Shown piece by piece: positions 2,616 to 21,078 of a stretch of 21,138 nt of DNA (position 1 is its first letter; the number at the start of each line of letters is the position of its first letter). Under the pieces are notes generated by a model, which saw only the letters and a list, made by a program, of their open reading frames with translations, searched no databases and was not told where the DNA came from. This stretch comes from a virus: UHGV virus genome UHGV-0785298. One strand, 5' to 3'. The translations under genes and the position numbers were made by a program.

Positions 2616-2680
2616 TTGGTGTATCCTCAGTTAGGTTCCGCTCATGGGGAACGAGTCCATTATACACCGAATACCGGAAA

Positions 2681-2706
2681 TGAAAAAGAGGCCGGAGCCT
2701 CTTTTG
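2681..2706 (-). terminator. intrinsic-terminator-like hairpin (family B)
   Basis: Stem AAAGAGGC / GCCTCTTT (8 bp) with loop CGGA at 2685..2704; on the minus strand it is followed by a T5 tract. Lies just downstream of the gene ending at 2734. Confidence 0.55.
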
Positions 2707-4792: not shown

Positions 4793-4816
4793 GAAAAGGA
4801 GGCCGGAGCCTCCTTG
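4793..4816 (-). terminator. intrinsic-terminator-like hairpin (family B)
   Basis: Stem AAGGAGGC / GCCTCCTT with loop CGGA at 4796..4815, immediately downstream of the rIIB stop (4832..4834); the minus-strand U-tract is short (TTTT, partly inside the stem). Confidence 0.45.
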
Positions 4817-9185: not shown

Positions 9186-9258
9186 AGTATAGAAATCCTA
9201 TCAATGTCAAAGGGGAACATATTGGTTGAGTGGGTATAATACGGTGGGCGTCTTCAAT

Positions 9259-9285
9259 TGAAAAAGCCCTCGACTGAGGGCTTTG
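9259..9285 (-). terminator. intrinsic-terminator-like hairpin
   Basis: Stem AAAGCCCTC / GAGGGCTTT (9 bp) with loop GACT at 9263..9284; a T5 tract follows on the minus strand. Lies between the gene ending at 9292 and the rIIA start. Confidence 0.55.
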
Positions 9286-9291
9286 TTCAGA

Positions 9292-9639
9292 TCAATCTTC
9301 GGTGGCAAATCGCGCCTGGAAGTCGAATGTTGGGCGCTGGGCACCAGGTTCCAACTTCTCTTCCAGATAGCCGATGATGGTGCGAGTGACCGACACAGGC
9401 TCTTTGCGTGGGTTGACTGGAGTAGCCAGCGCGATGATAGAGGACTGCTGCTCTTCTACACGCGTGTATTCCACATTGAAGTGATAGCGAGAACCAAAGG
9501 CCGCCACTTCGACTTCAACGATTTGTAGATCTTTCAGGTCAGTGCTGCTCAGGGTTCCCACGTTCAACTGTGAGCGCAGATGCTCAACAATGTTAGAATA
9601 CACATACTGTGGGGTGATCAGCTGTTCAATAGAACTCAT
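9292..9639 (-). CDS. hypothetical protein
   Basis: 115-aa ORF, ATG at 9639 with GAGGA 7 nt upstream. Confidence 0.55.
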   Translation of the reverse strand: MSSIEQLITPQYVYSNIVEHLRSQLNVGTLSSTDLKDLQIVEVEVAAFGSRYHFNVEYTRVEEQQSSIIALATPVNPRKEPVSVTRTIIGYLEEKLEPGAQRPTFDFQARFATED

Positions 9640-9981: not shown

Positions 9982-10433
9982 TTTGTTTCCCCCTTGGCAG
10001 CATAGGACAGTGCCTGAACAATCATTACAGCCAGATCGATCGGTGAGTAGGTGCTGTTCAAATCTTCTCGAACACTCTGCTCGATTTCTTCATCAGACTG
10101 GACCACAGGACAGTTCTTCCCCTGGCGACGGCGTTCTGTGTTGATCATATCACGCAGGAGCAGATCGGTGAAGGAGTACTCGTCAAAGTTCTCCAGGTAT
10201 TTCTGAATCCCAGTGGATACAGGGGTTTGCTCCGGCTCCTGTGCCCCAGGATCTTTCAGGGCAGCAACAGTGGCATCAATATCCCACAGAGGGTTCATCA
10301 GTAACAGAAGATTAACTGTTTCTCCTGACTCTGAAGTCGGGTTATTTCCCAGCACCTTGTAAAGATTCTTCAGGGTACTGTCAAAGGTCAGAACGGTCTG
10401 CGCCAGTTCTTCATAAGTTGGTTTGGTAGTCAT
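9978..10433 (-). CDS. hypothetical acidic protein
   Basis: 151-aa ORF, ATG at 10433; no recognisable motif. Confidence 0.5.
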   Translation of the reverse strand: MTTKPTYEELAQTVLTFDSTLKNLYKVLGNNPTSESGETVNLLLLMNPLWDIDATVAALKDPGAQEPEQTPVSTGIQKYLENFDEYSFTDLLLRDMINTERRRQGKNCPVVQSDEEIEQSVREDLNSTYSPIDLAVMIVQALSYAAKGETK

Positions 10434-10492
10434 CAGCGTTTGCTCCGGCGTTTGTTCTTCATCTTTCTTGGCTTGTCTGTCATGTCTTGTCC

Positions 10493-10533
10493 ACGAAAAA
10501 GGGGATAGAGCAATAATACCCTATCCCCTTTTA
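10493..10533 (-). terminator. intrinsic-terminator-like hairpin (family A)
   Basis: 12-bp stem AAAAGGGGATAG / CTATCCCCTTTT with loop AGCAATAATACC; a T5 tract follows on the minus strand and a TTTTATTG tract on the plus strand. Confidence 0.6.
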
Positions 10534-10544
10534 TTGAAGAACGA

Positions 10545-10958
10545 TTAGACTTCAGATTCTACTTTCCCGCCTCGTAGATCCCGAACTGGTTTACCGTCCG
10601 GTGTCATCACATAAATGGTGTTGATTGTCTCAAACCAAGACAGCTGGTCAACACCCTCGGTGTATGGAGTCACCGGAACAGAAGTCTTGACCTCTTTGCC
10701 TTTCGTGTTCGGATGTTCAACCACATCCAAGAACGCACATTTCCCGCTCGGAAGGATCACACCATCAGTAAACAGCACGATCTTCTTGCGAGGGTTGCTG
10801 GCCTCACCCAGGCACACCACCAGATGATGGATCATCTCGGGGCGGTCAATCAACAAGTCGTCTTTGATAATCCCTTGCTTGATAGCAGAGATCACTACTT
10901 CATCCAACAGAGCCTGCTGTTGTTCCAGTGTCAGGGATTCAGTGAGTTTCACGCTCAT
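10545..10958 (-). CDS. hypothetical protein
   Basis: First ATG at 10958 (MSVKLTESL...), 4 nt after the LemA stop; 137 aa. The ORF-track start at 11027 would overlap LemA. Confidence 0.5.
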   Translation of the reverse strand: MSVKLTESLTLEQQQALLDEVVISAIKQGIIKDDLLIDRPEMIHHLVVCLGEASNPRKKIVLFTDGVILPSGKCAFLDVVEHPNTKGKEVKTSVPVTPYTEGVDQLSWFETINTIYVMTPDGKPVRDLRGGKVESEV

Positions 10959-11550: not shown

Positions 11551-12666
11551 TTAAAAATTAAACGGATAACGACGACGGCCACCATTGTACTCCATTCGCT
11601 GTAATATGAAAATTGCGGTGAACGGTAGACAGCCCAGTAGAACAACAATCACAACTTCCCAGGTCTTGAGTTCCCGCCACTTCAGGTACTCCATTTCCTT
11701 CATCTCAACGCGGTTGTAGCCTTTGGTGATGTTAGCGACAACATCAGCCATGACACCGACACCCATGTCGTGGCCTGTGAGAGCCATGCCATTGCGAGAA
11801 TGGAGTTCACGGTTATGCATACCATCAGCGAACGAAGTGCTCTTGCCCCAGTTGATCTTCAGGTCTTTGTTGATGTCGGTCACGACGATAACGTCGTTCT
11901 TTTTACCACCATCCCAAGCATAGACCAAGCCCTGGAAGTATTCAACTGGCTGACCGGAAGTCACAACCCAGACGATGTTCACCTGCTTGGCTGCGCCCAG
12001 CTTCTTCAGGACATCGTTCAGATAGTCGTTCCAGTATGTGGTCGGTAACGCCAGACCAGACACATTCAGTACACGAGTGACGCGATAGTAGTCATAGACC
12101 TCAGGGTACTTGGGAATCTTGTCTTTGAAGCGCTCAGCAAACTGCTGGTCCGAGCGAGAGAACAAAGAGTCCTTGTTACCCAGCACATAGTTCATGTAGG
12201 AATGCTCACGAGCTGCGGGTTCGCCGATCTGAACCTGCGCCCAGCGCGGGGGCTGACCAAGACCGCGACGATCAATGCGGTCAATCGTCAGATTACCGAC
12301 AGTCGTCAACACATCCCAGTCCACGTCATATGAATGCTCATAACATGTACTGCAATGGCGAGTGCGGGTACAGGACTTGCTGCTGCCGGAGCCGGAGCAT
12401 GATGTGGTGTAGTAGCAGTTGCATTCATATGAATGCTCACAGCTCACCTTATTCCGCTCCTTTGCAGTGACGTACCCGTTCAGGATCTCAACATCCCCTG
12501 AACTGCCAAGGGAGAACGCAGCATAAGTCCCCGCCTGAATCAGACAGGATAGCACCACTACAATCGCGGTCGCTATCAGAGTCTCTTTCGGCTCATGGGT
12601 CTTGCGGTGGTAGGCCACAAACAAAATAGCCAGTACCAATGGCACACCAAACAGGAGGTAGATCAT
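11551..12666 (-). CDS. membrane protein with Cys/His-rich segment and TPM-like domain (putative LemA partner)
   Basis: 371 aa: N-terminal TM helices, a Cys-rich block (CEHSYECNCYYTTSCSGSGSSKSCTRTRHCSTCYEHSY), then IVWVVTSGQPVEYFQGLVYAWDGGKKNDVIVVTDINKDLKINWG resembling the TPM-domain core (VVVT...W.IG.KGKDNGVLLLV...RKVRIEVGYG), and a C-terminal TM helix. The ATG overlaps the upstream stop (ATGA). Confidence 0.45.
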   Translation of the reverse strand: MIYLLFGVPLVLAILFVAYHRKTHEPKETLIATAIVVVLSCLIQAGTYAAFSLGSSGDVEILNGYVTAKERNKVSCEHSYECNCYYTTSCSGSGSSKSCTRTRHCSTCYEHSYDVDWDVLTTVGNLTIDRIDRRGLGQPPRWAQVQIGEPAAREHSYMNYVLGNKDSLFSRSDQQFAERFKDKIPKYPEVYDYYRVTRVLNVSGLALPTTYWNDYLNDVLKKLGAAKQVNIVWVVTSGQPVEYFQGLVYAWDGGKKNDVIVVTDINKDLKINWGKSTSFADGMHNRELHSRNGMALTGHDMGVGVMADVVANITKGYNRVEMKEMEYLKWRELKTWEVVIVVLLGCLPFTAIFILQRMEYNGGRRRYPFNF

Positions 12667-12881
12667 TTGGATTCACCGACGAGCTGCGCCTTGGTCATCC
12701 CAAGGAGTTGATCTTTATGCTCAGGATTGGCACCGTTCTTTAACAACAAATCCCAACGCTCTTCATGGTACTGTGGGTCCAGTGCTTCATCAAATGTGAT
12801 GTGGTGGCGGAACATAATAGTTGCCACTGAATGGACACAGTGAGCGATTGCGCGCTTCATTGTTCGGGTATTCTTGATCAT
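12663..12881 (-). CDS. hypothetical small protein
   Basis: ATG at 12881 overlaps the upstream stop (ATGA); 72 aa. The ORF-track start at 12902 is a TTG. Confidence 0.45.
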   Translation of the reverse strand: MIKNTRTMKRAIAHCVHSVATIMFRHHITFDEALDPQYHEERWDLLLKNGANPEHKDQLLGMTKAQLVGESK

Positions 12882-13102
12882 CTTGTACACCCTCCGACAC
12901 AAATGATATTCAGTTCGCCACGGACAAACCCATTCTTACCGGAGGATTTGTTGCCGTTCAGCATTTTCCACAGCCCATCAGCGTCGCCCAATTCCGGCAT
13001 CTGATACTGTACCACAGGGGTCTTGCGATCTTCTTCGAGCATTACAGACACCATAGATTCGATATCCAGGGAGTCCATATCTTCAATTCGTTGCATTGCC
13101 AT
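12878..13102 (-). CDS. hypothetical small acidic protein
   Basis: 74-aa ORF, ATG at 13102 with AGAGGA upstream. Confidence 0.5.
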   Translation of the reverse strand: MAMQRIEDMDSLDIESMVSVMLEEDRKTPVVQYQMPELGDADGLWKMLNGNKSSGKNGFVRGELNIICVGGCTR

Positions 13103-13114
13103 AGTGAAATCCTC

Positions 13115-13312
13115 TTAATAGAGTTTGGTGTATGTTTGTTTGACACACATAAAAGTGCTCATATATCTTTGTGATTCCACCAAATGAGCAAACGCCTTTT
13201 CTGCCGAACTCTTGTCCTTGAACTCCAGAACGGAAGTGTCTACTGCAATAGATTGATTCTTCCCGTCGAAGCCAACGGTTGTCACTAAGATCTTATAATC
13301 TTGGGTTTCCAT
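13115..13312 (-). CDS. hypothetical small protein
   Basis: 65-aa ORF, ATG at 13312 with AAGGA upstream. Confidence 0.5.
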   Translation of the reverse strand: METQDYKILVTTVGFDGKNQSIAVDTSVLEFKDKSSAEKAFAHLVESQRYMSTFMCVKQTYTKLY

Positions 13313-13325
13313 GATGTATATCCTT

Positions 13326-13368
13326 GCAAAAGAAAGGGGAACGGGCTAATAATAACCCATTCCCCTTT
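13326..13368 (-). terminator. intrinsic-terminator-like hairpin (family A)
   Basis: 9-bp stem AAAGGGGAA / TTCCCCTTT enclosing loop CGGGCTAATAATAACCCA; on the minus strand it is followed by TTTCTTTTG, then an AAGGA Shine-Dalgarno and the ATG at 13312. Confidence 0.55.
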
Positions 13369-13393
13369 ATTGAAGGAAGCAACCCCAGTCAGA

Positions 13394-13561
13394 TTACTTT
13401 TTCTTCAGCTCGTCCAGTTTGGCTTCGATCTGGTCCAGAATCTCTTTGCCTTTCTGAACAATCACTTCACCATCTTGCGCGTGTTTACGGAAGACCAGAG
13501 CACCAGCGATGAAGCCGACAACCGCGCCAGGAAGCGCATAAACCAGCAGATCTTGTAACAT
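13394..13561 (-). CDS. small single-pass membrane protein (not in the ORF track)
   Basis: Hand translation from ATG 13561..13559 to TAA at 13396..13394: MLQDLLVYALPGAVVGFIAGALVFRKHAQDGEVIVQKGKEILDQIEAKLDELKKK (55 aa), one TM helix and a charged helical tail. A GAGGA Shine-Dalgarno lies 9 nt upstream, inside a hairpin arm. Confidence 0.5.
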   Translation of the reverse strand: MLQDLLVYALPGAVVGFIAGALVFRKHAQDGEVIVQKGKEILDQIEAKLDELKKK

Positions 13562-13597
13562 GATAATATCCTCGCTTTATAGGCGAGGATATTTATA
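13562..13597 (-). promoter_or_regulatory. TATAAATA (T4 late-promoter-like octamer) followed by an 8-bp hairpin that contains the downstream gene's Shine-Dalgarno
   Basis: The minus strand reads TATAAATA at 13597..13590, immediately followed by stem ATCCTCGC / GCGAGGAT (13567..13589) whose 3' arm contains the GAGGA used by the small ORF starting at 13561. This is the only TATAAATA in the window. Confidence 0.3.
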
Positions 13598-15369: not shown

Positions 15370-16965
15370 TCACCCCTTCTTCATCAGGTCAAGGAGAGAG
15401 CGCGACGCTGCCTTCGTTGCTTCTGGCTGGGCGCTCGCCTTGGTTTTAGTTTTGGATGCCTTCTGTGGCTTCTCAGGGACTCTGTGTGCCAAAGGGTTGC
15501 TACCTCTTATCTTGCGCAGCATGGGATACTGCTCGCAATATTTATGGAATTCATCTTTTGAAAGATTAAGCCCAACAAAGTCAATAACAAAGTCACCGAT
15601 AACCGCCAACGGGGCGTCAAAATATTTCAGGATGTTCCAGCCGACGGCCTTCACACCGTTTCCATTAGCAGCCTTGGCAATGAAGAGTTCATGATTGGAA
15701 TCCGGTTCCAGCTCATACCCAATAGCAGAATATTCGCCCATGATCTTGACATGATCCTTGGTGTATTGATCGTTTCGTCCCCAGCCAGTGTCCTTCGCCG
15801 CCTTACCAGAACGACCGATGATACGCTTGTCGTAATCTTCCCGTGCCTGATAGATGAATGAGATGAATGCCATGTTGTTGAACCCCAAGTCCTGGTGTAC
15901 GAACTTAGGACGCCACCGATGGCTCTGCATCATAGGTTCCCCTTCCAATATGATGGTAGAATCCTTGTATTTCCCTTTGATGTATTTCACCAATGAATTG
16001 GCCATCTCAGAAGTCTTGAGAGTGGAGTGGATGAAGTCCATGGAAGTCCAAGAAGCCAGATCTGATTTGTTGGACACTGTATACTTGCCGATGAACACCA
16101 GATTGATTTCCTTGAACCAAAACCCAACCTGGATCATCTTCTTGTCGAATTCGTATTCTATGAGTTCTGGCTCATATTTGGTTCTCAACCACTCAAGGAA
16201 TTGAACGACACGAGTCCCCTTTCCCGTTCCACTTGTCCCGCGAATAACGACAATACCCGGCGTCACGCTAGAATTTATCATAGTCATAAAACGTTTGTCC
16301 TCTTTGGGAATCCAACCATCTTTAAACATGGCGATCATATTACGAAAGACGCTCTCATCGCCCTTTAGATTACGATACTCTGTGTCCAGTAGTTTAGAAT
16401 ACCACAATCCGATAGATTTGTAACCACATCCTCGTTTTGGCATACAGGTAGGATTCACAGTACCGCCGTTGTTCACCCATCTATCATAGATCCTACGGGC
16501 GTCCTTCCAAACCCACCAATAACCATTTGAAACCATGAATGGGTAGGGAGAATTACCCCTGTTCTCCTTTATTGATTTTATTACACGTTCCCGGTATTCT
16601 GGATCATCCCAAGGATTTATACCAGATTTGTATTTCTTGCCAGTCCTAGCCAACGCCGCCTTAAATTGGTTTGGTATGATAGAATTGTCTCCTCCCAATT
16701 TCAGGTTCAGGCATAATGGGTCCAACAGTAACTCTTCCGTAACAATAATAGACTCCAGGTCGGATGCCTCCAACCTGGTTTCAAACTTTTCTATTATCGT
16801 CTTTAAGAATTCAGAAGCGGGGTGAGATTCCAACAACCTTTTGATGATAACACCAGAACCCATATAGGGGTCTTGTTCGGGGGTGCATGAACAAGACCGA
16901 ATCCCGACGTAGAATCTCCCAGTTGGGACATGAGTTATCCTATATGTGTAATGGTAGCGAGCCAT
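15370..16965 (-). CDS. GIY-YIG nuclease domain fused to a P-loop NTPase/kinase-like domain
   Basis: 531 aa. N-terminus YHYTYRITHVPTGRFYVGIRS...DPYMGSG fits the GIY-(10-11 aa)-YIG spacing and the 'YMGSG' signature of Seg-like phage GIY-YIG nucleases. Mid-protein Walker A IVVIRGTSGTGKGTRVV and a Walker-B-like DSTIILEGEP. Lys-rich C-terminal tail. The ATG overlaps the upstream stop (TAATG). Confidence 0.55.
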   Translation of the reverse strand: MARYHYTYRITHVPTGRFYVGIRSCSCTPEQDPYMGSGVIIKRLLESHPASEFLKTIIEKFETRLEASDLESIIVTEELLLDPLCLNLKLGGDNSIIPNQFKAALARTGKKYKSGINPWDDPEYRERVIKSIKENRGNSPYPFMVSNGYWWVWKDARRIYDRWVNNGGTVNPTCMPKRGCGYKSIGLWYSKLLDTEYRNLKGDESVFRNMIAMFKDGWIPKEDKRFMTMINSSVTPGIVVIRGTSGTGKGTRVVQFLEWLRTKYEPELIEYEFDKKMIQVGFWFKEINLVFIGKYTVSNKSDLASWTSMDFIHSTLKTSEMANSLVKYIKGKYKDSTIILEGEPMMQSHRWRPKFVHQDLGFNNMAFISFIYQAREDYDKRIIGRSGKAAKDTGWGRNDQYTKDHVKIMGEYSAIGYELEPDSNHELFIAKAANGNGVKAVGWNILKYFDAPLAVIGDFVIDFVGLNLSKDEFHKYCEQYPMLRKIRGSNPLAHRVPEKPQKASKTKTKASAQPEATKAASRSLLDLMKKG

Positions 16966-18059: not shown

Positions 18060-18397
18060 TTGTCTTCCTCAACTTTATCGTAGCCTGTAGCAACACACTG
18101 TTCTTCGGTACAATCTGCATACAGAACGACGGAGGCCTGCTTCACGTAGGTGATGCAGTGGTAAGTTTCGTCTTCCTGGACGGAATCGTCATAGTTGCAG
18201 ACAGTTTGGAGCGGACCCGGAGTAGTGTTGTCCAGTGCTGCATGCGCCTTGATGGTGTCTTCCATCTTGGACACGGCCTGCTCATTGGTGAACGTCGGCG
18301 CGTCAAGGTCTACAGTAGATGCAACGTCCAGAAGGGTGGAACACGCAGTGGTAGAGAAAGCCAGAGCGCACACCAGAAGAATCTTATTGAGTTTCAT
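18056..18397 (-). CDS. putative lipoprotein
   Basis: ATG at 18397 with AGGTGA upstream (the track start at 18406 is a GTG). Signal peptide with lipobox-like LVCALAFSTTAC; the mature part carries four further Cys. Confidence 0.45.
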   Translation of the reverse strand: MKLNKILLVCALAFSTTACSTLLDVASTVDLDAPTFTNEQAVSKMEDTIKAHAALDNTTPGPLQTVCNYDDSVQEDETYHCITYVKQASVVLYADCTEEQCVATGYDKVEEDK

Positions 18398-18426
18398 TTC
18401 AATCACCTGTTTGTCAAAGGGTTAAC

Positions 18427-18446
18427 AGGGGGAATTATATCCCCCT
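18427..18446 (-). promoter_or_regulatory. GC hairpin with a TATAAT loop between the polymerase and lipoprotein genes
   Basis: Stem AGGGGGA / TCCCCCT (7 bp); the loop reads TATAAT on the minus strand; TTCAATAAA lies just upstream on the minus strand, as in the family A hairpins. No U-tract follows on the minus strand, so it is not a canonical terminator for the coding strand. Confidence 0.3.
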
Positions 18447-18459
18447 TTGGTTTATTGAA

Positions 18460-21078
18460 TCAACCTTTCTTCTTTTGCATCATGGCAAGAAGGTTCACAC
18501 GGCGCTTGTGTGACCAGCCGACCACGTCGAGGATAGACTGAATCGGATCAATGAAGGACTTCTCAAAGGCCGCCTGATAATCCACCCATTTGCCCAGACC
18601 AAGCTCCTCAGGGAAGAACTCAGGATATGCGAAGTAATTCTGGCCGAATGGGTTGCCTGGCTTCAACAACACCATCTGTACCTTATCACCCGACTCGATC
18701 ATCGGTAGACCCAGATCTTCGTTCTTCTCAACCAGACGGTTGTAGCCCACACACGCCTTGGCAGCAAAATGAGCACCAGAGATGAACGATCCGTCAGCAG
18801 CCACACACTTCTCTATGTCGGACACGCCGGAAGCCTTGGCGATATCGTCTACAGAGAGTTTCATGTACTCCTCTTTGTACTGGGAGATGAGCGTCTGTAC
18901 TTCCTCTTCGGTGCCGAGTAGGATCTTCTCATAACACTTGACAAGACGCTCACGACACCATTCCGGCGTGGTGGACTTGCGGGCTTCCAGACCTTTGAAC
19001 TTAATCTTCGGCTTCTCGTACTTGATACCCTCACTGTCGTACACGGCCATGGCATACATCTTCTTGGCTCGCCAGACAGCGGCTGACGCAATGACCTCAC
19101 GCTCCCATACCATGCGCTGTTCAAATCCGTTCATGGTGTTACACAGAAGCTGTGCCCACTCATTGGTCTTCGGCTGGTAGTTGTCTTTGATCCATTGGTC
19201 GATATTATCAACCATAGCATGATGGTCAGTAACATCAGGCCACAACTGCTTGACAAGACGCTCAATGCAGATGTAGTTGGAGTCGGTATCCCCTGCGATG
19301 ACGAAGTCCTGGCCTGTTGTACCACACAGCTTGTTCAGATAGTCATCAGTGTAACGCTTGTTCCACTTGTTGATCAGCTGACCGGATGTGGTGATGGCTT
19401 CGGCAATGTTGAGGTTGAAGTACTCTTTGAACCAGACGTTTGAGATCGCGCCATAACCTGCGTTCATCAAGATCTTCAGACCTTGCTGTAGGGTGTCTTG
19501 AGCAACGCCCAGATCTTCCCACTTCTTCATCACTTCGGTCAGGGCATCAAGATCAATGTTCTTGTGCTCTTCATACCACTCTGGGTCATAGTAGCGAGAC
19601 TTCATGGCAGACTCAAGATGGAAGTCGCCCTTCGACATCTCTTTACACCAGCCAGCCCACTGCTCATACTTCAGACCCTTGGCCTTCTCTACTTTACGGT
19701 CGCTGTAGATACCACGCATGATTTCAGACAGGAACGACATCTTCTCGTTGCTGAAGAATTGAACGTTCGGCGTGAACGACACGTTGTAGCGGCGCAGGGT
19801 TTCAAAGTGGAACTCACCCAGGGCAACCAACTCATCAACAACCTGCAGGCGTTCGTCAATCGCACGCAACAGCTTGTCGTGAAGGGCTTTCATCAACCGA
19901 CGTTTGTGCATCGGCGTTGCCATGTTATTCATCTGAGCAGCCAGCTCTTCACACATAGCCTCAATAATCTCGCGGCGCTGGTGTTTGTCGCCAACGATAG
20001 TCTCTGGACCGAGGTTGTACTGCTGAATGATGTGAGGATACAGGGAGTTCAAATCTTCCGAGAAGACCCAGAAGTAGATTCCTGGTGTCACATCCATGAC
20101 GTATGCACCCTCAAAGTCGGTCGGACCATCGTATACACGCTGGATCTTAGGCACTATCCCCTTCTCATACAGACGATAGTAGCACATGGCCAGCCACGGA
20201 GACACAGTGCCCAGACCGTCTTCATAGTTGGACTTGGTGCGGTACGCAAGGACGAACATCAGCTGGAGCAGGCGCAGCTTCTGTTCAAGTCGCCATACCA
20301 GCTTAACGTCTTTGATACCATATCGGGTGTGTTTGCAGTAGTCGTTGAAGTACAGATCAAAGAGCGACTTGCTCTCACTGTAGTCCATCTTCTTCTCACC
20401 CAGCTCACAATACGCAATCCAGTCAAGAGAGTAGCGTTCACGGGTGGTGTACGTGTGTTTCTTGTAGATCTGCATATAATCGAGCATAGGACAGCCCACG
20501 AACTGATACGTCGTGATATCGCCCTTCTTATCGCGAATGATACGCTTCTTAATGATACCCCAAGGACTGAGGCGCGACGTTTCAGCCTCACCCAGAACCT
20601 GATTCATGCGCTCAACAAGATAAGGGCTATCAAACGTCTCAATGTTCCAGCCTGTCCAGCCATCAAACTGACGCTGCGACCAGAAGTCTAGGAAAGATCG
20701 CAGCAGATCCTGCTCGGTGACAAACTCCTTGTACTCCACCTCAAGTCCACCGATCTCCGCGTCTTCTGGATCGTATCTGAACTTCGCACGATCCTTCGCG
20801 CACGGCATACCCCACACCATGAACTTATTGGTCGCCATGTCCTGAAGCTGGATCAGGGTAATGGGGAACGCCGCATTCATGTCTTGGGTGATCTTGCCGT
20901 TGCTGTCAATGATAGGGAACTTATCAGTGACGTTGTTGCTGATAAAGGAACTGGGAAAGTGCTCACGGATGAAGTCATGGTTGGCCAGTACCTGCTGATG
21001 GAAGCGGCGAATGCGCGCCTCATTCCCTTTGAACGTCTGCTGCTCAATGGTTGGGTGAGGGAATGGACCTTTGGTCAT
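18460..21078 (-). CDS. DNA polymerase, family B (T4 gp43-like)
   Basis: 872-aa ORF. Polymerase motifs DLNSLYPHII (A), KILMNAGYGAISN (B), AGDTDS (C). Exonuclease motifs GWNIETFDSPY (Exo II) and YGIKDVKLV (Exo III). C-terminal MVLLKPGNPFGQNYFAYP matches the T4/RB69 gp43 tail as recalled. The ATG at 21078 forms an ATGA overlap with the stop of an upstream ORF. Confidence 0.95.
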   Translation of the reverse strand: MTKGPFPHPTIEQQTFKGNEARIRRFHQQVLANHDFIREHFPSSFISNNVTDKFPIIDSNGKITQDMNAAFPITLIQLQDMATNKFMVWGMPCAKDRAKFRYDPEDAEIGGLEVEYKEFVTEQDLLRSFLDFWSQRQFDGWTGWNIETFDSPYLVERMNQVLGEAETSRLSPWGIIKKRIIRDKKGDITTYQFVGCPMLDYMQIYKKHTYTTRERYSLDWIAYCELGEKKMDYSESKSLFDLYFNDYCKHTRYGIKDVKLVWRLEQKLRLLQLMFVLAYRTKSNYEDGLGTVSPWLAMCYYRLYEKGIVPKIQRVYDGPTDFEGAYVMDVTPGIYFWVFSEDLNSLYPHIIQQYNLGPETIVGDKHQRREIIEAMCEELAAQMNNMATPMHKRRLMKALHDKLLRAIDERLQVVDELVALGEFHFETLRRYNVSFTPNVQFFSNEKMSFLSEIMRGIYSDRKVEKAKGLKYEQWAGWCKEMSKGDFHLESAMKSRYYDPEWYEEHKNIDLDALTEVMKKWEDLGVAQDTLQQGLKILMNAGYGAISNVWFKEYFNLNIAEAITTSGQLINKWNKRYTDDYLNKLCGTTGQDFVIAGDTDSNYICIERLVKQLWPDVTDHHAMVDNIDQWIKDNYQPKTNEWAQLLCNTMNGFEQRMVWEREVIASAAVWRAKKMYAMAVYDSEGIKYEKPKIKFKGLEARKSTTPEWCRERLVKCYEKILLGTEEEVQTLISQYKEEYMKLSVDDIAKASGVSDIEKCVAADGSFISGAHFAAKACVGYNRLVEKNEDLGLPMIESGDKVQMVLLKPGNPFGQNYFAYPEFFPEELGLGKWVDYQAAFEKSFIDPIQSILDVVGWSHKRRVNLLAMMQKKKG

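What the first reader, a model, noticed from the sequence alone, without database searches (positions are those of the whole stretch)
10493..10540. Family A intergenic hairpins share flanks and loop but differ in the stem by compensatory changes
The elements at 10493..10540 and 13326..13380 read, on the plus strand, AAAGGGGA-[stem]-AATAATA-[stem]-TCCCCTTT(T)ATTGAAG. The stems differ (GATAGAG/CTATC versus GAACGGG/CCCATTC) but stay complementary, whereas the loop core AATAATA(A)CCC and the flank TTTATTGAAG are conserved. On the minus strand each is preceded by TTCAATAAA, a 9-mer that recurs at a third hairpin (18421..18458). Conservation of loop and flank beyond what termination requires suggests a protein-binding or processing site, or a promoter-plus-stem-loop cassette like the PeSL elements described in T4-type phages.
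Basis: seen in the sequence. Interest (0 to 1): 0.5.

Follow-up and report, generated by a model that had tools for sequence, protein, structure and literature searches.

The report
Terminator hairpins carrying a phage promoter
These short hairpins between genes of a ViI-like (Ackermannviridae) phage are most likely transcription stop signals with the family's published TTCAAT-N14-TATAAT promoter motif built into them, a compact stop-and-restart cassette of a kind already described in T4-type phages, so the finding is real but largely explained.

Summary
The window is an Aglimvirinae phage, 97.6% identical to Escherichia phage A221, with all genes on the minus strand.

Read on that strand, each element is: stop codon, TTCAATAAA, a G-run/C-run hairpin, a T-tract, then the next gene.

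This is a published regulatory motif of ViI-like phages.
- The spacing is exactly 14 nt in all three elements.
- The -10 box (TATTAT or TATAAT) sits at the top of the hairpin.
- The LIMEstone1 GenBank record already annotates the first element as a terminator with a "-10 signal" inside it.

The hairpin is about 9 kcal/mol more stable in the gene-sense RNA because of G·U pairs. Both boxes, the spacing and the pairing are kept across three genera, including a G-C to A-U double change.

Outside the window, two direct copies flank a 66-aa ORF in A221, and LHE287 and SKML-39 lack that ORF and have a single copy. LHE287 joins the outer flanks precisely.

Best reading: overlapping terminator-promoter cassettes, functionally like the PeSL/PmSL elements of T4-type phages. 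Upstream transcripts stop; new ones would start inside the 3' arm and escape. No transcript data exist, so function is inferred. This is a new member of a known kind, of modest interest.

The parts
10530..10538 (-). E1 upstream promoter box TTCAATAAA (TTCAAT = 10538..10533). It lies 6 nt after the TAA stop (10547..10545) of the upstream 160-aa ORF.
   Evidence: Invariant in 10 distinct orthologous sequences from three genera.
10497..10532 (-). E1 hairpin: AAAAGGGGATAGGGTA / TTAT / TGCTCTATCCCCTTTT. It has 16 pairs, including 2 G.U.
   Evidence: -27.6 kcal/mol, z -6.8; antisense only -18.1. 96.3% of cells are paired across orthologs, with a G-C to A-U double change. Annotated as a terminator in LIMEstone1 and in phage May.
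10513..10518 (-). E1 -10 box TATTAT, exactly 14 nt after TTCAAT. TA closes the stem and TTAT is the loop.
   Evidence: Annotated 'minus_10_signal putative promoter' inside the terminator in HE600015.
10496..10500 (-). E1 T-tract (TTTTT) directly after the C-run.
   Evidence: T-rich in all orthologs although the sequence beyond it diverges.
13366..13374 (-). E2 upstream box TTCAATAAA, 19 nt after the stop (13396..13394) of the 55-aa gene.
13333..13368 (-). E2 hairpin: AAAGGGGAATGGGTTA / TTAT / TAGCCCGTTCCCCTTT. It has 16 pairs, including 2 G.U.
   Evidence: -26.5 kcal/mol, z -6.0; antisense -17.9. Annotated as a terminator in LIMEstone1. Every ortholog folds at -20 to -26 kcal/mol.
13349..13354 (-). 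E2 -10 box TATTAT, 14 nt after TTCAAT.
   Evidence: It reads TAATAT in LIMEstone1-like phages and TATATT in Taipeivirus, still at N14.
13328..13335 (-). E2 T-tract TTTCTTTT.
18451..18459 (-). E3 upstream box TTCAATAAA. It abuts the TGA stop (18462..18460) of the DNA polymerase ORF.
18427..18446 (-). E3 hairpin AGGGGGA / TATAAT / TCCCCCT (7 pairs). The T-tract after it is weak (CTGTTAACCCTTTG).
   Evidence: It is extended to 11-12 pairs in Taipeivirus by changes on both arms.
18434..18439 (-). E3 -10 box TATAAT, which forms the whole loop, 14 nt after TTCAAT. Also preceded by TTGATT at 18 nt, a 10/12 sigma-70 match.
9236..9284 (-). Tandem version upstream of rIIA: terminator hairpin AAAGCCCTC/agtc/GAGGGCTTT (9284..9263). 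Its T-tract runs into TTCAAT (9262..9257), then N15, then TATTAT (9241..9236).
   Evidence: The same layout is found in Taipeivirus.
2659..2705 (-). Second tandem version: terminator AAAAGAGGC/tccg/GCCTCTTTT (2705..2684). It runs into TTCATT (2684..2679), then N14, then TATAAT (2664..2659), upstream of the histone-like gene.

Best explanation
Each element is an overlapping terminator-promoter cassette on the gene-sense (minus) strand.

Terminator function (inferred): the G-run/C-run hairpin plus T-tract acts as an intrinsic terminator or attenuator for RNA polymerase arriving from the upstream gene.

Promoter function (inferred): the same DNA carries a phage promoter of the Ackermannviridae type.
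- The box TTCAAT(AAA) lies around -32 to -24.
- A 14-nt spacer follows, which is the 5' arm of the hairpin.
- A -10 box TATTAT/TATAAT follows, which is the stem top and loop.

How the two fit together (inferred): initiation about 7 nt downstream of the -10 box falls inside the 3' arm, near 10506, 13342 and 18426. A transcript started there lacks the 5' arm, cannot form the terminator hairpin, and reads on into the next gene. The cassette therefore insulates one transcription unit and restarts the next within about 50 nt.

Recombination (partly shown): because copies are repeated and similar, they also act as crossover points for gain and loss of small gene cassettes.

What is shown and what is inferred:
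- Shown: the motif, its spacing, the fold, its strand bias, its conservation, and the recombination footprints.
- Inferred: terminator activity, promoter activity, the start site, and which polymerase form reads a box with a 14-nt spacer.
For: 1. The flank and loop are the two boxes of TTCAAT[N14]TATAAT, quoted as a 'unique regulatory motif' of this phage group (PMC7283392).
2. Motif counts exceed chance.
   - The window has 5 TTCAAT-N13-15-TANNNT matches against 0.5 expected. Four are on the sense strand in intergenic gaps.
   - The whole A221 genome has 12 N14 matches against 1.15 expected. Eight lie in intergenic gaps co-oriented with the next gene, and a ninth lies in an unannotated stretch.
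3. The boxes occur at N14 without a hairpin (A221 99859, 148938) and with unrelated stems (E3; A221 31835, 32095, 75140). The boxes are therefore conserved independently of any one hairpin.
4. In Taipeivirus the stems change, yet the spacer stays at 14 nt. E1 shows a G-C to A-U double substitution. E2 loses a G from the G-run and gains a C before the -10 box.
5. The LIMEstone1 record annotates the E1 ortholog as a terminator with a -10 signal inside it, and E2 as a terminator. Phage May annotates E1 as a terminator.
6. G.U pairs make the sense RNA about 9 kcal/mol more stable than the antisense. T-tracts persist although downstream leaders diverge.
7. The published PeSL anatomy and logic match, and promoter and terminator activities were shown experimentally for PeSLs in RB49/phi1 (PMC2839356; PMC4122927).
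8. Recombination footprints.
   - A 66-aa ORF flanked by two copies in A221 is absent from LHE287 and SKML-39, which keep one copy. LHE287 joins the left flank of copy 1 to the right flank of copy 2.
   - Gene content varies directly downstream of E2.
   - A hairpin-free copy marks the point where homology starts.
Against: - No 5'- or 3'-end mapping exists for any Ackermannviridae phage in the searched literature.
- TTCAAT with a 14-nt spacer is not a workable sigma-70 -35 arrangement. ViI-like phages are reported to lack MotA and AsiA (PMC3184105), so the factor that would read the box is unknown.
- E3 and the A221 copies at 31835 and 32095 lack a good T-tract, so their hairpins may not terminate.
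- TTCAATAAA also precedes a plain terminator with no -10 in its loop (A221 66669).
- In L013 the E2 hairpin is flipped and the N14 -10 match is degraded to TAATAA. The promoter is therefore dispensable there, or tolerant of the change.
- Orthologs are nearly invariant, so covariation support is thin: 2 pairs with double changes, and 9 of 500 shuffles reach the covariation score.
Confidence: 0.7

Rival explanations
1. They are plain intrinsic terminators and nothing more. The shared TTCAATAAA and TATTAT are leftovers of a duplicated terminator. The A-tract merely mirrors the T-tract, as in bidirectional terminators, and no transcription starts there.
For: - E1 and E2 share about 20 nt (CGTTCTTCAATAAA(A)GGGGA) in most relatives, which suggests common descent.
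- Two independent annotation teams called them terminators.
- TTCAATAAA precedes a terminator without a loop -10 at A221 66669.
- The L013 flip degrades the -10 box without loss of the element.
Against: - The same two boxes at exactly N14 occur with no hairpin and with unrelated hairpins.
- The spacing is held at 14 nt while the stems change in Taipeivirus.
- The motif is about 10-fold over chance, and 8 of the 12 A221 matches lie in intergenic gaps co-oriented with the next gene.
- A loop sequence is not needed for termination, yet it is conserved across genera.
Confidence: 0.15
2. The conserved flank and loop are an RNA-level site, either for a phage or host protein or for an endonuclease. 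Examples are RNase III or RegB-type processing, or a stabilising 3' hairpin with a recognised loop.
For: - The hairpin is tuned to the sense RNA by G.U pairs.
- The loop and the 5' flank are more conserved than termination needs.
- The A221 record annotates a regA-type 'endoribonuclease translational repressor of early genes'.
Against: - The conserved positions coincide exactly with a DNA promoter motif that also occurs without any hairpin.
- No Rfam family matches.
- The loop changes (TATTAT, TAATAT, TATATT, TATAAT) always stay TAnnnT, which is what a -10 box requires rather than an RNA loop recognition site.
Confidence: 0.07
3. The inverted repeat works at the DNA level. It might extrude as a cruciform or hairpin that is itself the promoter signal, as at phage N4 early promoters. 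Or it might be the target of a dedicated recombinase that moves gene cassettes.
For: - The -10 box sits at the tip of a long inverted repeat in five A221 copies.
- Crossovers fall inside the element, and one copy is flipped end to end.
- The PeSL authors speculated about a protein that recognises GGGG...CCCC (PMC2839356).
Against: - The two G.U pairs per stem become C.A mismatches on the other strand, so a DNA cruciform would be imperfect and the structure is favoured on only one strand.
- Hairpin-free copies of the motif exist.
- The known family literature does not report a phage-encoded RNA polymerase for this family, and the CBA120 paper assumes host RNA polymerase is used.
- Ordinary homologous recombination between 31-nt repeats suffices for the deletion seen.
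Confidence: 0.05

Closest known systems
PeSL / PmSL elements (promoter-early or promoter-middle stem-loops) of T4-type phages RB49/phi1, T4/PST and KVP40/nt-1 (Arbiol et al. 2010, PMC2839356; Comeau et al. 2014, PMC4122927)
   Same: [quoted passage not shown] - PmSLs pair a non-sigma-70 upstream box with a TATTAT -10 box.
- Both occur in several positional subclasses. Here there are embedded copies (E1-E3) and tandem copies (rIIA and 2.7 kb).
- Both sit next to small variable ORFs, with crossovers inside the element.
   Different: - The host family is Ackermannviridae, not T4-type phages in the strict sense.
- The upstream box is TTCAAT(AAA) with a 14-nt spacer. It is neither TTGACA/TTTACW at N17 nor the TGCTT Mot box.
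- No promoter, terminator or mini-circle assays exist for these elements.
- Only a handful of embedded copies occur per genome (5 in A221), rather than dense arrays.
TTCAAT[N14]TATAAT regulatory motif of the 'Viunalikevirus' (ViI-like) phages, as quoted in the EspM4VN paper (PMC7283392). From memory, the original description is Adriaenssens et al. 2012, Arch Virol, which could not be read here.
   Same: E3 matches exactly. E1 and E2 match with one change in the -10 box (TATTAT). The sites are intergenic, co-oriented with genes, and conserved across genera.
   Different: The quoted motif is a bare sequence pattern. The source read here says nothing about the spacer being one arm of a terminator hairpin or the -10 box being its loop. 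That overlap appears only as two overlapping features in the LIMEstone1 GenBank record.
Intrinsic (Rho-independent) terminators
   Same: E1 and E2 have a G+C-rich stem, a short loop and a T-tract, and lie downstream of a co-oriented gene. Their fold energy is far below shuffled controls. Others have already annotated them as terminators.
   Different: The loop and the 5' flank are conserved as a promoter motif. E3 has a poor T-tract.
T4 late-promoter-in-hairpin control, known from my own recollection of T4 genes e, soc and I-TevI. Early read-through RNA hides the ribosome-binding site in a hairpin. Late RNA starts inside the hairpin and is translated.
   Same: The logic is the same: a transcript that begins inside a hairpin lacks one arm and so escapes the hairpin's effect. 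A textbook-looking example lies in this window at 13565-13597.
   Different: There the hairpin blocks translation. In E1-E3 it would block elongation by terminating transcription.

Membership tests
PeSL (T4-type promoter-early stem-loop) | Lies in the intergenic gap between the stop codon of one gene and the SD and ATG of the next co-oriented gene | tested here: met
   E1 follows the stop at 10545-10547. E2 follows the stop at 13394-13396 and precedes the ATG at 13312. E3 abuts the stop at 18460-18462 and precedes the ATG at 18397.
PeSL (T4-type promoter-early stem-loop) | Sigma-70-like promoter: -35 box (TTGACA / TTTACW / TTGYVH), 17-nt spacer, -10 box (TATAAT-like) | tested here: not met
   The -10 box is present (TATTAT or TATAAT). 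The upstream box is TTCAAT at 14 nt, and no -35-like hexamer lies at 16-18 nt in E1 or E2. Only E3 has TTGATT at 18 nt.
PeSL (T4-type promoter-early stem-loop) | Stable stem-loop with a G-run and a C-run, placed between the boxes or over the -10 box | tested here: met
   GGGG...CCCC stems with the -10 box at the stem top and loop. Energies are -27.6, -26.5 and -18.5 kcal/mol.
PeSL (T4-type promoter-early stem-loop) | Repeated in the genome and associated with indels or exchanges of small ORFs between close relatives, with junctions in the element | tested here: met
   A221 has 5 embedded copies. The A221 cassette between 31835 and 32095 is absent from LHE287 and SKML-39, and in LHE287 the junction lies inside the repeat. 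Gene A is present or absent directly after E2.
PeSL (T4-type promoter-early stem-loop) | Measured promoter and terminator activity; formation of mini-circles | not testable with these tools
   This needs reporter fusions and inverse PCR on infected cells. No such data were found.
Ackermannviridae TTCAAT[N14]TATAAT motif | TTCAAT, exactly 14 nt, then TATAAT | tested here: met
   E3 is exact. E1 and E2 have TATTAT at exactly N14. The motif is quoted in PMC7283392.
Ackermannviridae TTCAAT[N14]TATAAT motif | Conserved among ViI-like phages at orthologous intergenic positions | tested here: met
   Present in the 14 IMG/VR loci, LIMEstone1 and four Taipeivirus genomes. The one exception is the flipped E2 hairpin in L013, which fails the strict N14 pattern.
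Intrinsic terminator | G+C-rich hairpin followed directly by a T-tract, downstream of a gene on the same strand | tested here: met
   E1 reads CCCC+TTTTT and E2 reads CCCC+TTTCTTTT. E3 is weak. The simple scan missed E1 and E2. The likely reason (my inference) is that the A/T pairs absorb the T-tract into the maximal stem, so too few Ts remain in the scan's tail window.
Intrinsic terminator | Transcripts actually end there | not testable with these tools
   This needs Term-seq or 3' RACE.
T4 middle (MotA-dependent) promoter | Mot box (a/t)(a/t)TGCTT(t/c)A centred at -30, with phage MotA and AsiA | tested here: not met
   The box is TTCAATAAA, not TGCTT. A TGCTT upstream of the window's E2 lies about 22 nt from the -10 box and is not conserved in relatives. 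MotA and AsiA are reported absent from ViI-like phages (PMC3184105), which I did not re-test.
Any Rfam RNA family | Match at the gathering score | tested here: not met
   0 matches over the whole window on both strands.

The most novel reading that the evidence does not exclude
The TTCAAT(AAA) box at about -30 with a fixed 14-nt spacer defines a class of Ackermannviridae promoters that host sigma-70 polymerase cannot use alone. They would depend on an unidentified phage factor: a functional analogue of MotA/AsiA sigma appropriation without sequence homologues. The hairpin-embedded copies would be mobile stop-and-restart cassettes that drive gene shuffling in this family, as PeSLs do in T4-type phages.
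Probability: 0.3. Interest if true: 0.55.

Novelty: new member of a known kind. Interest (0 to 1): 0.3.

Why it matters
It gives a concrete, testable transcription map for a stretch of early and middle genes. This matters because the CBA120 genome paper (2011) stated that early and middle promoters of this phage family could not be identified.

It suggests that the compact terminator-promoter cassette described for T4-type phages also operates in Ackermannviridae, including its role as a recombination joint.

For people who engineer these phages (CBA120, LIMEstone and Kuttervirus reporter phages), the elements are natural insulated insertion points. They need to be kept intact.

The conceptual gain is small. 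The motif, the terminators and the cassette idea are all already published or annotated.

Tried and rejected
- Rfam at gathering thresholds gave no match.
The loci were not examined and were not used.
- A literature search for the bare strings TTCAAT/CTAAATA returned only noise.
- The original Viunalikevirus paper (Arch Virol 2012) and a 2026 bioRxiv paper on promoter-terminator coupling are not held, so they could not be read.
- A possible fourth member at 16541-16576 (ATCAATAAAGGAGAAC...) was dropped. It lies inside the 531-aa ORF and has no TAnnnT at N14.
- The MotA-box reading was rejected: a TGCTT lies upstream of the window's E2 but at the wrong distance, and it is not conserved.
- The MAFFT alignment of E2 orthologs (A2) puts the Taipeivirus rows out of register because of the shifted G-run. 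I did not count pairs on it and relied on per-sequence folds instead.
- The terminator at 4796-4815 is followed by TTCAGT, but there is no -10 box at N13-15, so it was not counted as a composite.
- The deletion next to E1 in the window turned out to be an ordinary microhomology deletion inside the downstream gene. It is not a junction in the element.

Full report
**What the window is.** A 6-kb stretch around the finding is 97.6% identical to Escherichia phage A221 (Ackermannviridae, Aglimvirinae) and matches 280 phage records of that family. In A221 the region runs from the DNA polymerase gene to rIIA/rIIB, and every gene is on the minus strand of the window. The elements therefore have to be read on the minus strand.

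**The observation.**
- On the minus strand E1 reads: TAA stop, TCGTTC, TTCAATAAA, AGGGGATAGGGTA-TTAT-TGCTCTATCCCC, TTTTT.
- E2 reads: TAA stop, 19 nt, TTCAATAAA, GGGGAATGGGTTA-TTAT-TAGCCCGTTCCCC, TTTCTTTT.
- E3 reads: TGA stop, TTCAATAAA, CCAA, AGGGGGA-TATAAT-TCCCCCT.
- The 9-mer occurs three times in the window, only at these places, against 0.17 expected.
- E1 and E2 fold into 16-bp stems with a TTAT loop.
- The sense RNAs fold at -27.6 and -26.5 kcal/mol (z -6.8 and -6.0). The antisense RNAs reach only -18.1 and -17.9, because two G.U pairs per stem become C.A mismatches.
The one correction is that part of the "loop" is actually stem.

**What the conserved flank and loop are.**
- In all three elements TTCAAT is followed after exactly 14 nt by TATTAT or TATAAT.
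- TTCAAT[N14]TATAAT is quoted in the EspM4VN genome paper as one of two "unique regulatory motifs" of this phage group (PMC7283392).
- In the window, TTCAAT-N13-15-TANNNT occurs 5 times against 0.5 expected. Four of these are on the sense strand in intergenic gaps.
- In the complete A221 genome the N14 form occurs 12 times against 1.15 expected.
- By the A221 annotation, eight of the 12 lie in intergenic gaps co-oriented with the next gene. A ninth lies in an unannotated stretch.
- Some copies have no hairpin (A221 99859, 148938). Others have unrelated stems (E3; 31835, 32095, 75140).
- The two boxes and their spacing are therefore the conserved entity, and the hairpin is an add-on in a subset.
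- The LIMEstone1 GenBank record annotates the E1 ortholog as a "putative factor-independent terminator". Inside that feature it annotates the TATTAT as a "minus_10_signal, putative promoter". It annotates the E2 ortholog as a terminator.
- Phage May annotates E1 as a terminator.

**Conservation.**
- All three elements are present at orthologous positions in 14 IMG/VR Ackermannviridae loci. The neighbouring 371-aa protein in those loci is 82-99% identical to the window's.
- They are also present in four Taipeivirus (Klebsiella) genomes, where that protein is 69% identical in phage May.
- In E1 orthologs 96.3% of stem cells are paired. One pair shows G-C to A-U in Taipeivirus and several switch between G-C and G.U.
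- Sliding the 3' partner by one column drops pairing to about 63%.
- Variation is small, so the covariation statistics are only suggestive (9 of 500 shuffles).
- In E2 of Taipeivirus the G-run loses one G and a C is gained before the -10 box. The spacer therefore stays at 14 nt, and the top of the stem is rebuilt.
- The T-tracts persist while the leaders beyond them diverge.
- Loop variants are TATTAT, TAATAT, TATATT and TATAAT. All are TAnnnT.

**How it most likely works.**
- The hairpin plus T-tract, stable only in the sense RNA, would terminate or attenuate transcription coming from the upstream gene.
- The promoter built into it would start a new transcript about 7 nt after the -10 box. 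That point is inside the 3' arm.
- Such a transcript lacks the 5' arm and cannot form the terminator.
- This is an inference from geometry. No transcript mapping for this family was found.
- Two further copies in the window use a tandem layout, in which the terminator's T-tract runs into the upstream box. One is before rIIA (9236-9284, N15). The other is before the histone-like gene (2659-2705, TTCATT-N14-TATAAT).
- All five TTCAAT-type promoter candidates in the window, counting the one-mismatch TTCATT copy, are therefore physically coupled to a terminator hairpin.

**Comparison with known systems.**
- The anatomy is that of PeSL elements of T4-type phages. [quoted passage not shown]
- PeSLs come in several positional subclasses, and their promoter and terminator activities were shown by lacZ fusions (PMC2839356).
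- The nt-1 stems are A3-4G3-loop-C3T3-4. PmSL variants combine a Mot box with a TATTAT -10 box (PMC4122927).
- The PeSL hallmark of mediating cassette indels is also seen here.
  - In A221 two direct copies (TTCAATAACGGGGCGAGAGGTATTATTGCCC) flank a 66-aa ORF.
  - LHE287 and SKML-39 have a single copy and lack the ORF. In LHE287 the left flank of copy 1 is joined to the right flank of copy 2.
  - In MK-13 the first copy has a different 5' half, with the junction at TATTATT.
  - Directly after E2, a 63-65-aa gene is present in some relatives and absent in others.
  - A hairpin-free copy marks the exact point where homology between lineages begins.
- Strict PeSL membership fails on the promoter type. 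TTCAAT at 14 nt is neither sigma-70-like nor a Mot box, and the phage family is different.
- ViI-like phages are reported to lack MotA and AsiA (PMC3184105). What reads the upstream box is unknown.

**Rival readings.**
- A plain duplicated terminator is contradicted by the hairpin-free and differently stemmed copies and by the maintained N14 spacing.
- An RNA protein-binding or processing site is unnecessary, because the conserved positions are exactly a DNA promoter motif. It cannot be fully excluded.
- A DNA cruciform or a dedicated recombination site is disfavoured by the strand-specific G.U pairs.

**Verdict.**
- The motif is published, the terminators are annotated, and the cassette concept is established in T4-type phages.
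- What is added here has three parts. The flank and loop are identified as the two promoter boxes. The layout is shown to be conserved across three genera. PeSL-type recombination footprints are shown in Ackermannviridae.
- This is a new member of a known kind, of modest interest.

Noticed in passing
window 13565-13597 (minus strand): The only TATAAATA (T4-type late promoter) in the window, at 13597..13590, overlaps the 5' arm of an 11-bp hairpin at 13593..13565 (-19.5 kcal/mol, z -6.2). The 3' arm of that hairpin contains the SD GAGGA just before the ATG at 13561 of a 55-aa membrane-protein gene. This looks like the T4 gene e/soc arrangement: read-through RNA hides the ribosome site, and RNA started at the late promoter exposes it. 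LIMEstone1 marks a putative late promoter here. E2 would then terminate this late unit.
   Followed up: partly
window 10433-10483 (minus strand): A 16-codon ORF (MTDKPRKMKNKRRSKR) sits between E1 and the next gene. It is the in-frame remnant of a 116-aa gene that is intact in L006 and LIMEstone1 (ORF197). The deletion lies between two GCCAAGAA microhomologies.
   Followed up: yes
L013 about 9320-9356 (IMGVR_UViG_2974516482): The E2 hairpin is flipped end to end inside unchanged flanks. It reads AAAGGGGAACGGGTTAATAATAACCCATTCCCCTTT, which is the reverse complement of the usual copy bar one base. This creates a C.A mismatch in the sense RNA and changes the N14 -10 box to TAATAA.
   Followed up: partly
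A221 31835-32125 (L002); L145, L146, L147: Two direct copies of a hairpin-embedded promoter flank a 66-aa ORF in A221. LHE287 and SKML-39 have a single copy and lack the ORF, and LHE287 joins the outer flanks precisely. MK-13 has a first copy with an unrelated 5' half joined at TATTATT. This is a PeSL-style cassette gain or loss.
   Followed up: yes
window 9206-9214 and 18413-18421 (minus strand): CCCTTTGAC occurs in the 5' leaders 13-22 nt after the -10 boxes of the E3 and rIIA promoters, followed by (A)TAGG(A/T). It is conserved at both places in Taipeivirus. These are the only two copies lying in 5' leaders in A221. It may be a leader or operator motif; its function is unknown.
   Followed up: partly
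A221 21613, 33116, 66669, 141533 (L002-L004): A second recurrent promoter-like pattern is TTTACTTCTTCAATAAC-N5-TATAAT/TATACT. It has a T4-early-like -35 box (TTTACT), with TTCAAT lying in the spacer 8 nt before the -10 box. At 66669 the -35 box is formed by the T-tract of a terminator that is itself preceded by TTCAATAAA.
   Followed up: no
window 12663-13312 versus L006-L019: The stretch between E2 and the conserved 371-aa gene varies in length between relatives, with the TTCAAT-to-gene-start distance running from 283 to 865 nt. This comes from presence or absence of three small genes: a 63-65-aa gene, a 70-79-aa gene, and a 72-aa or 128-aa gene.
   Followed up: partly
window 15370-16965 (minus strand): This 531-aa ORF has the same length and position as the LIMEstone1 homing endonuclease F-LimXI. 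A221 annotates only an 852-nt CDS followed by an unannotated gap at this place, so the gene may be disrupted there.
   Followed up: no
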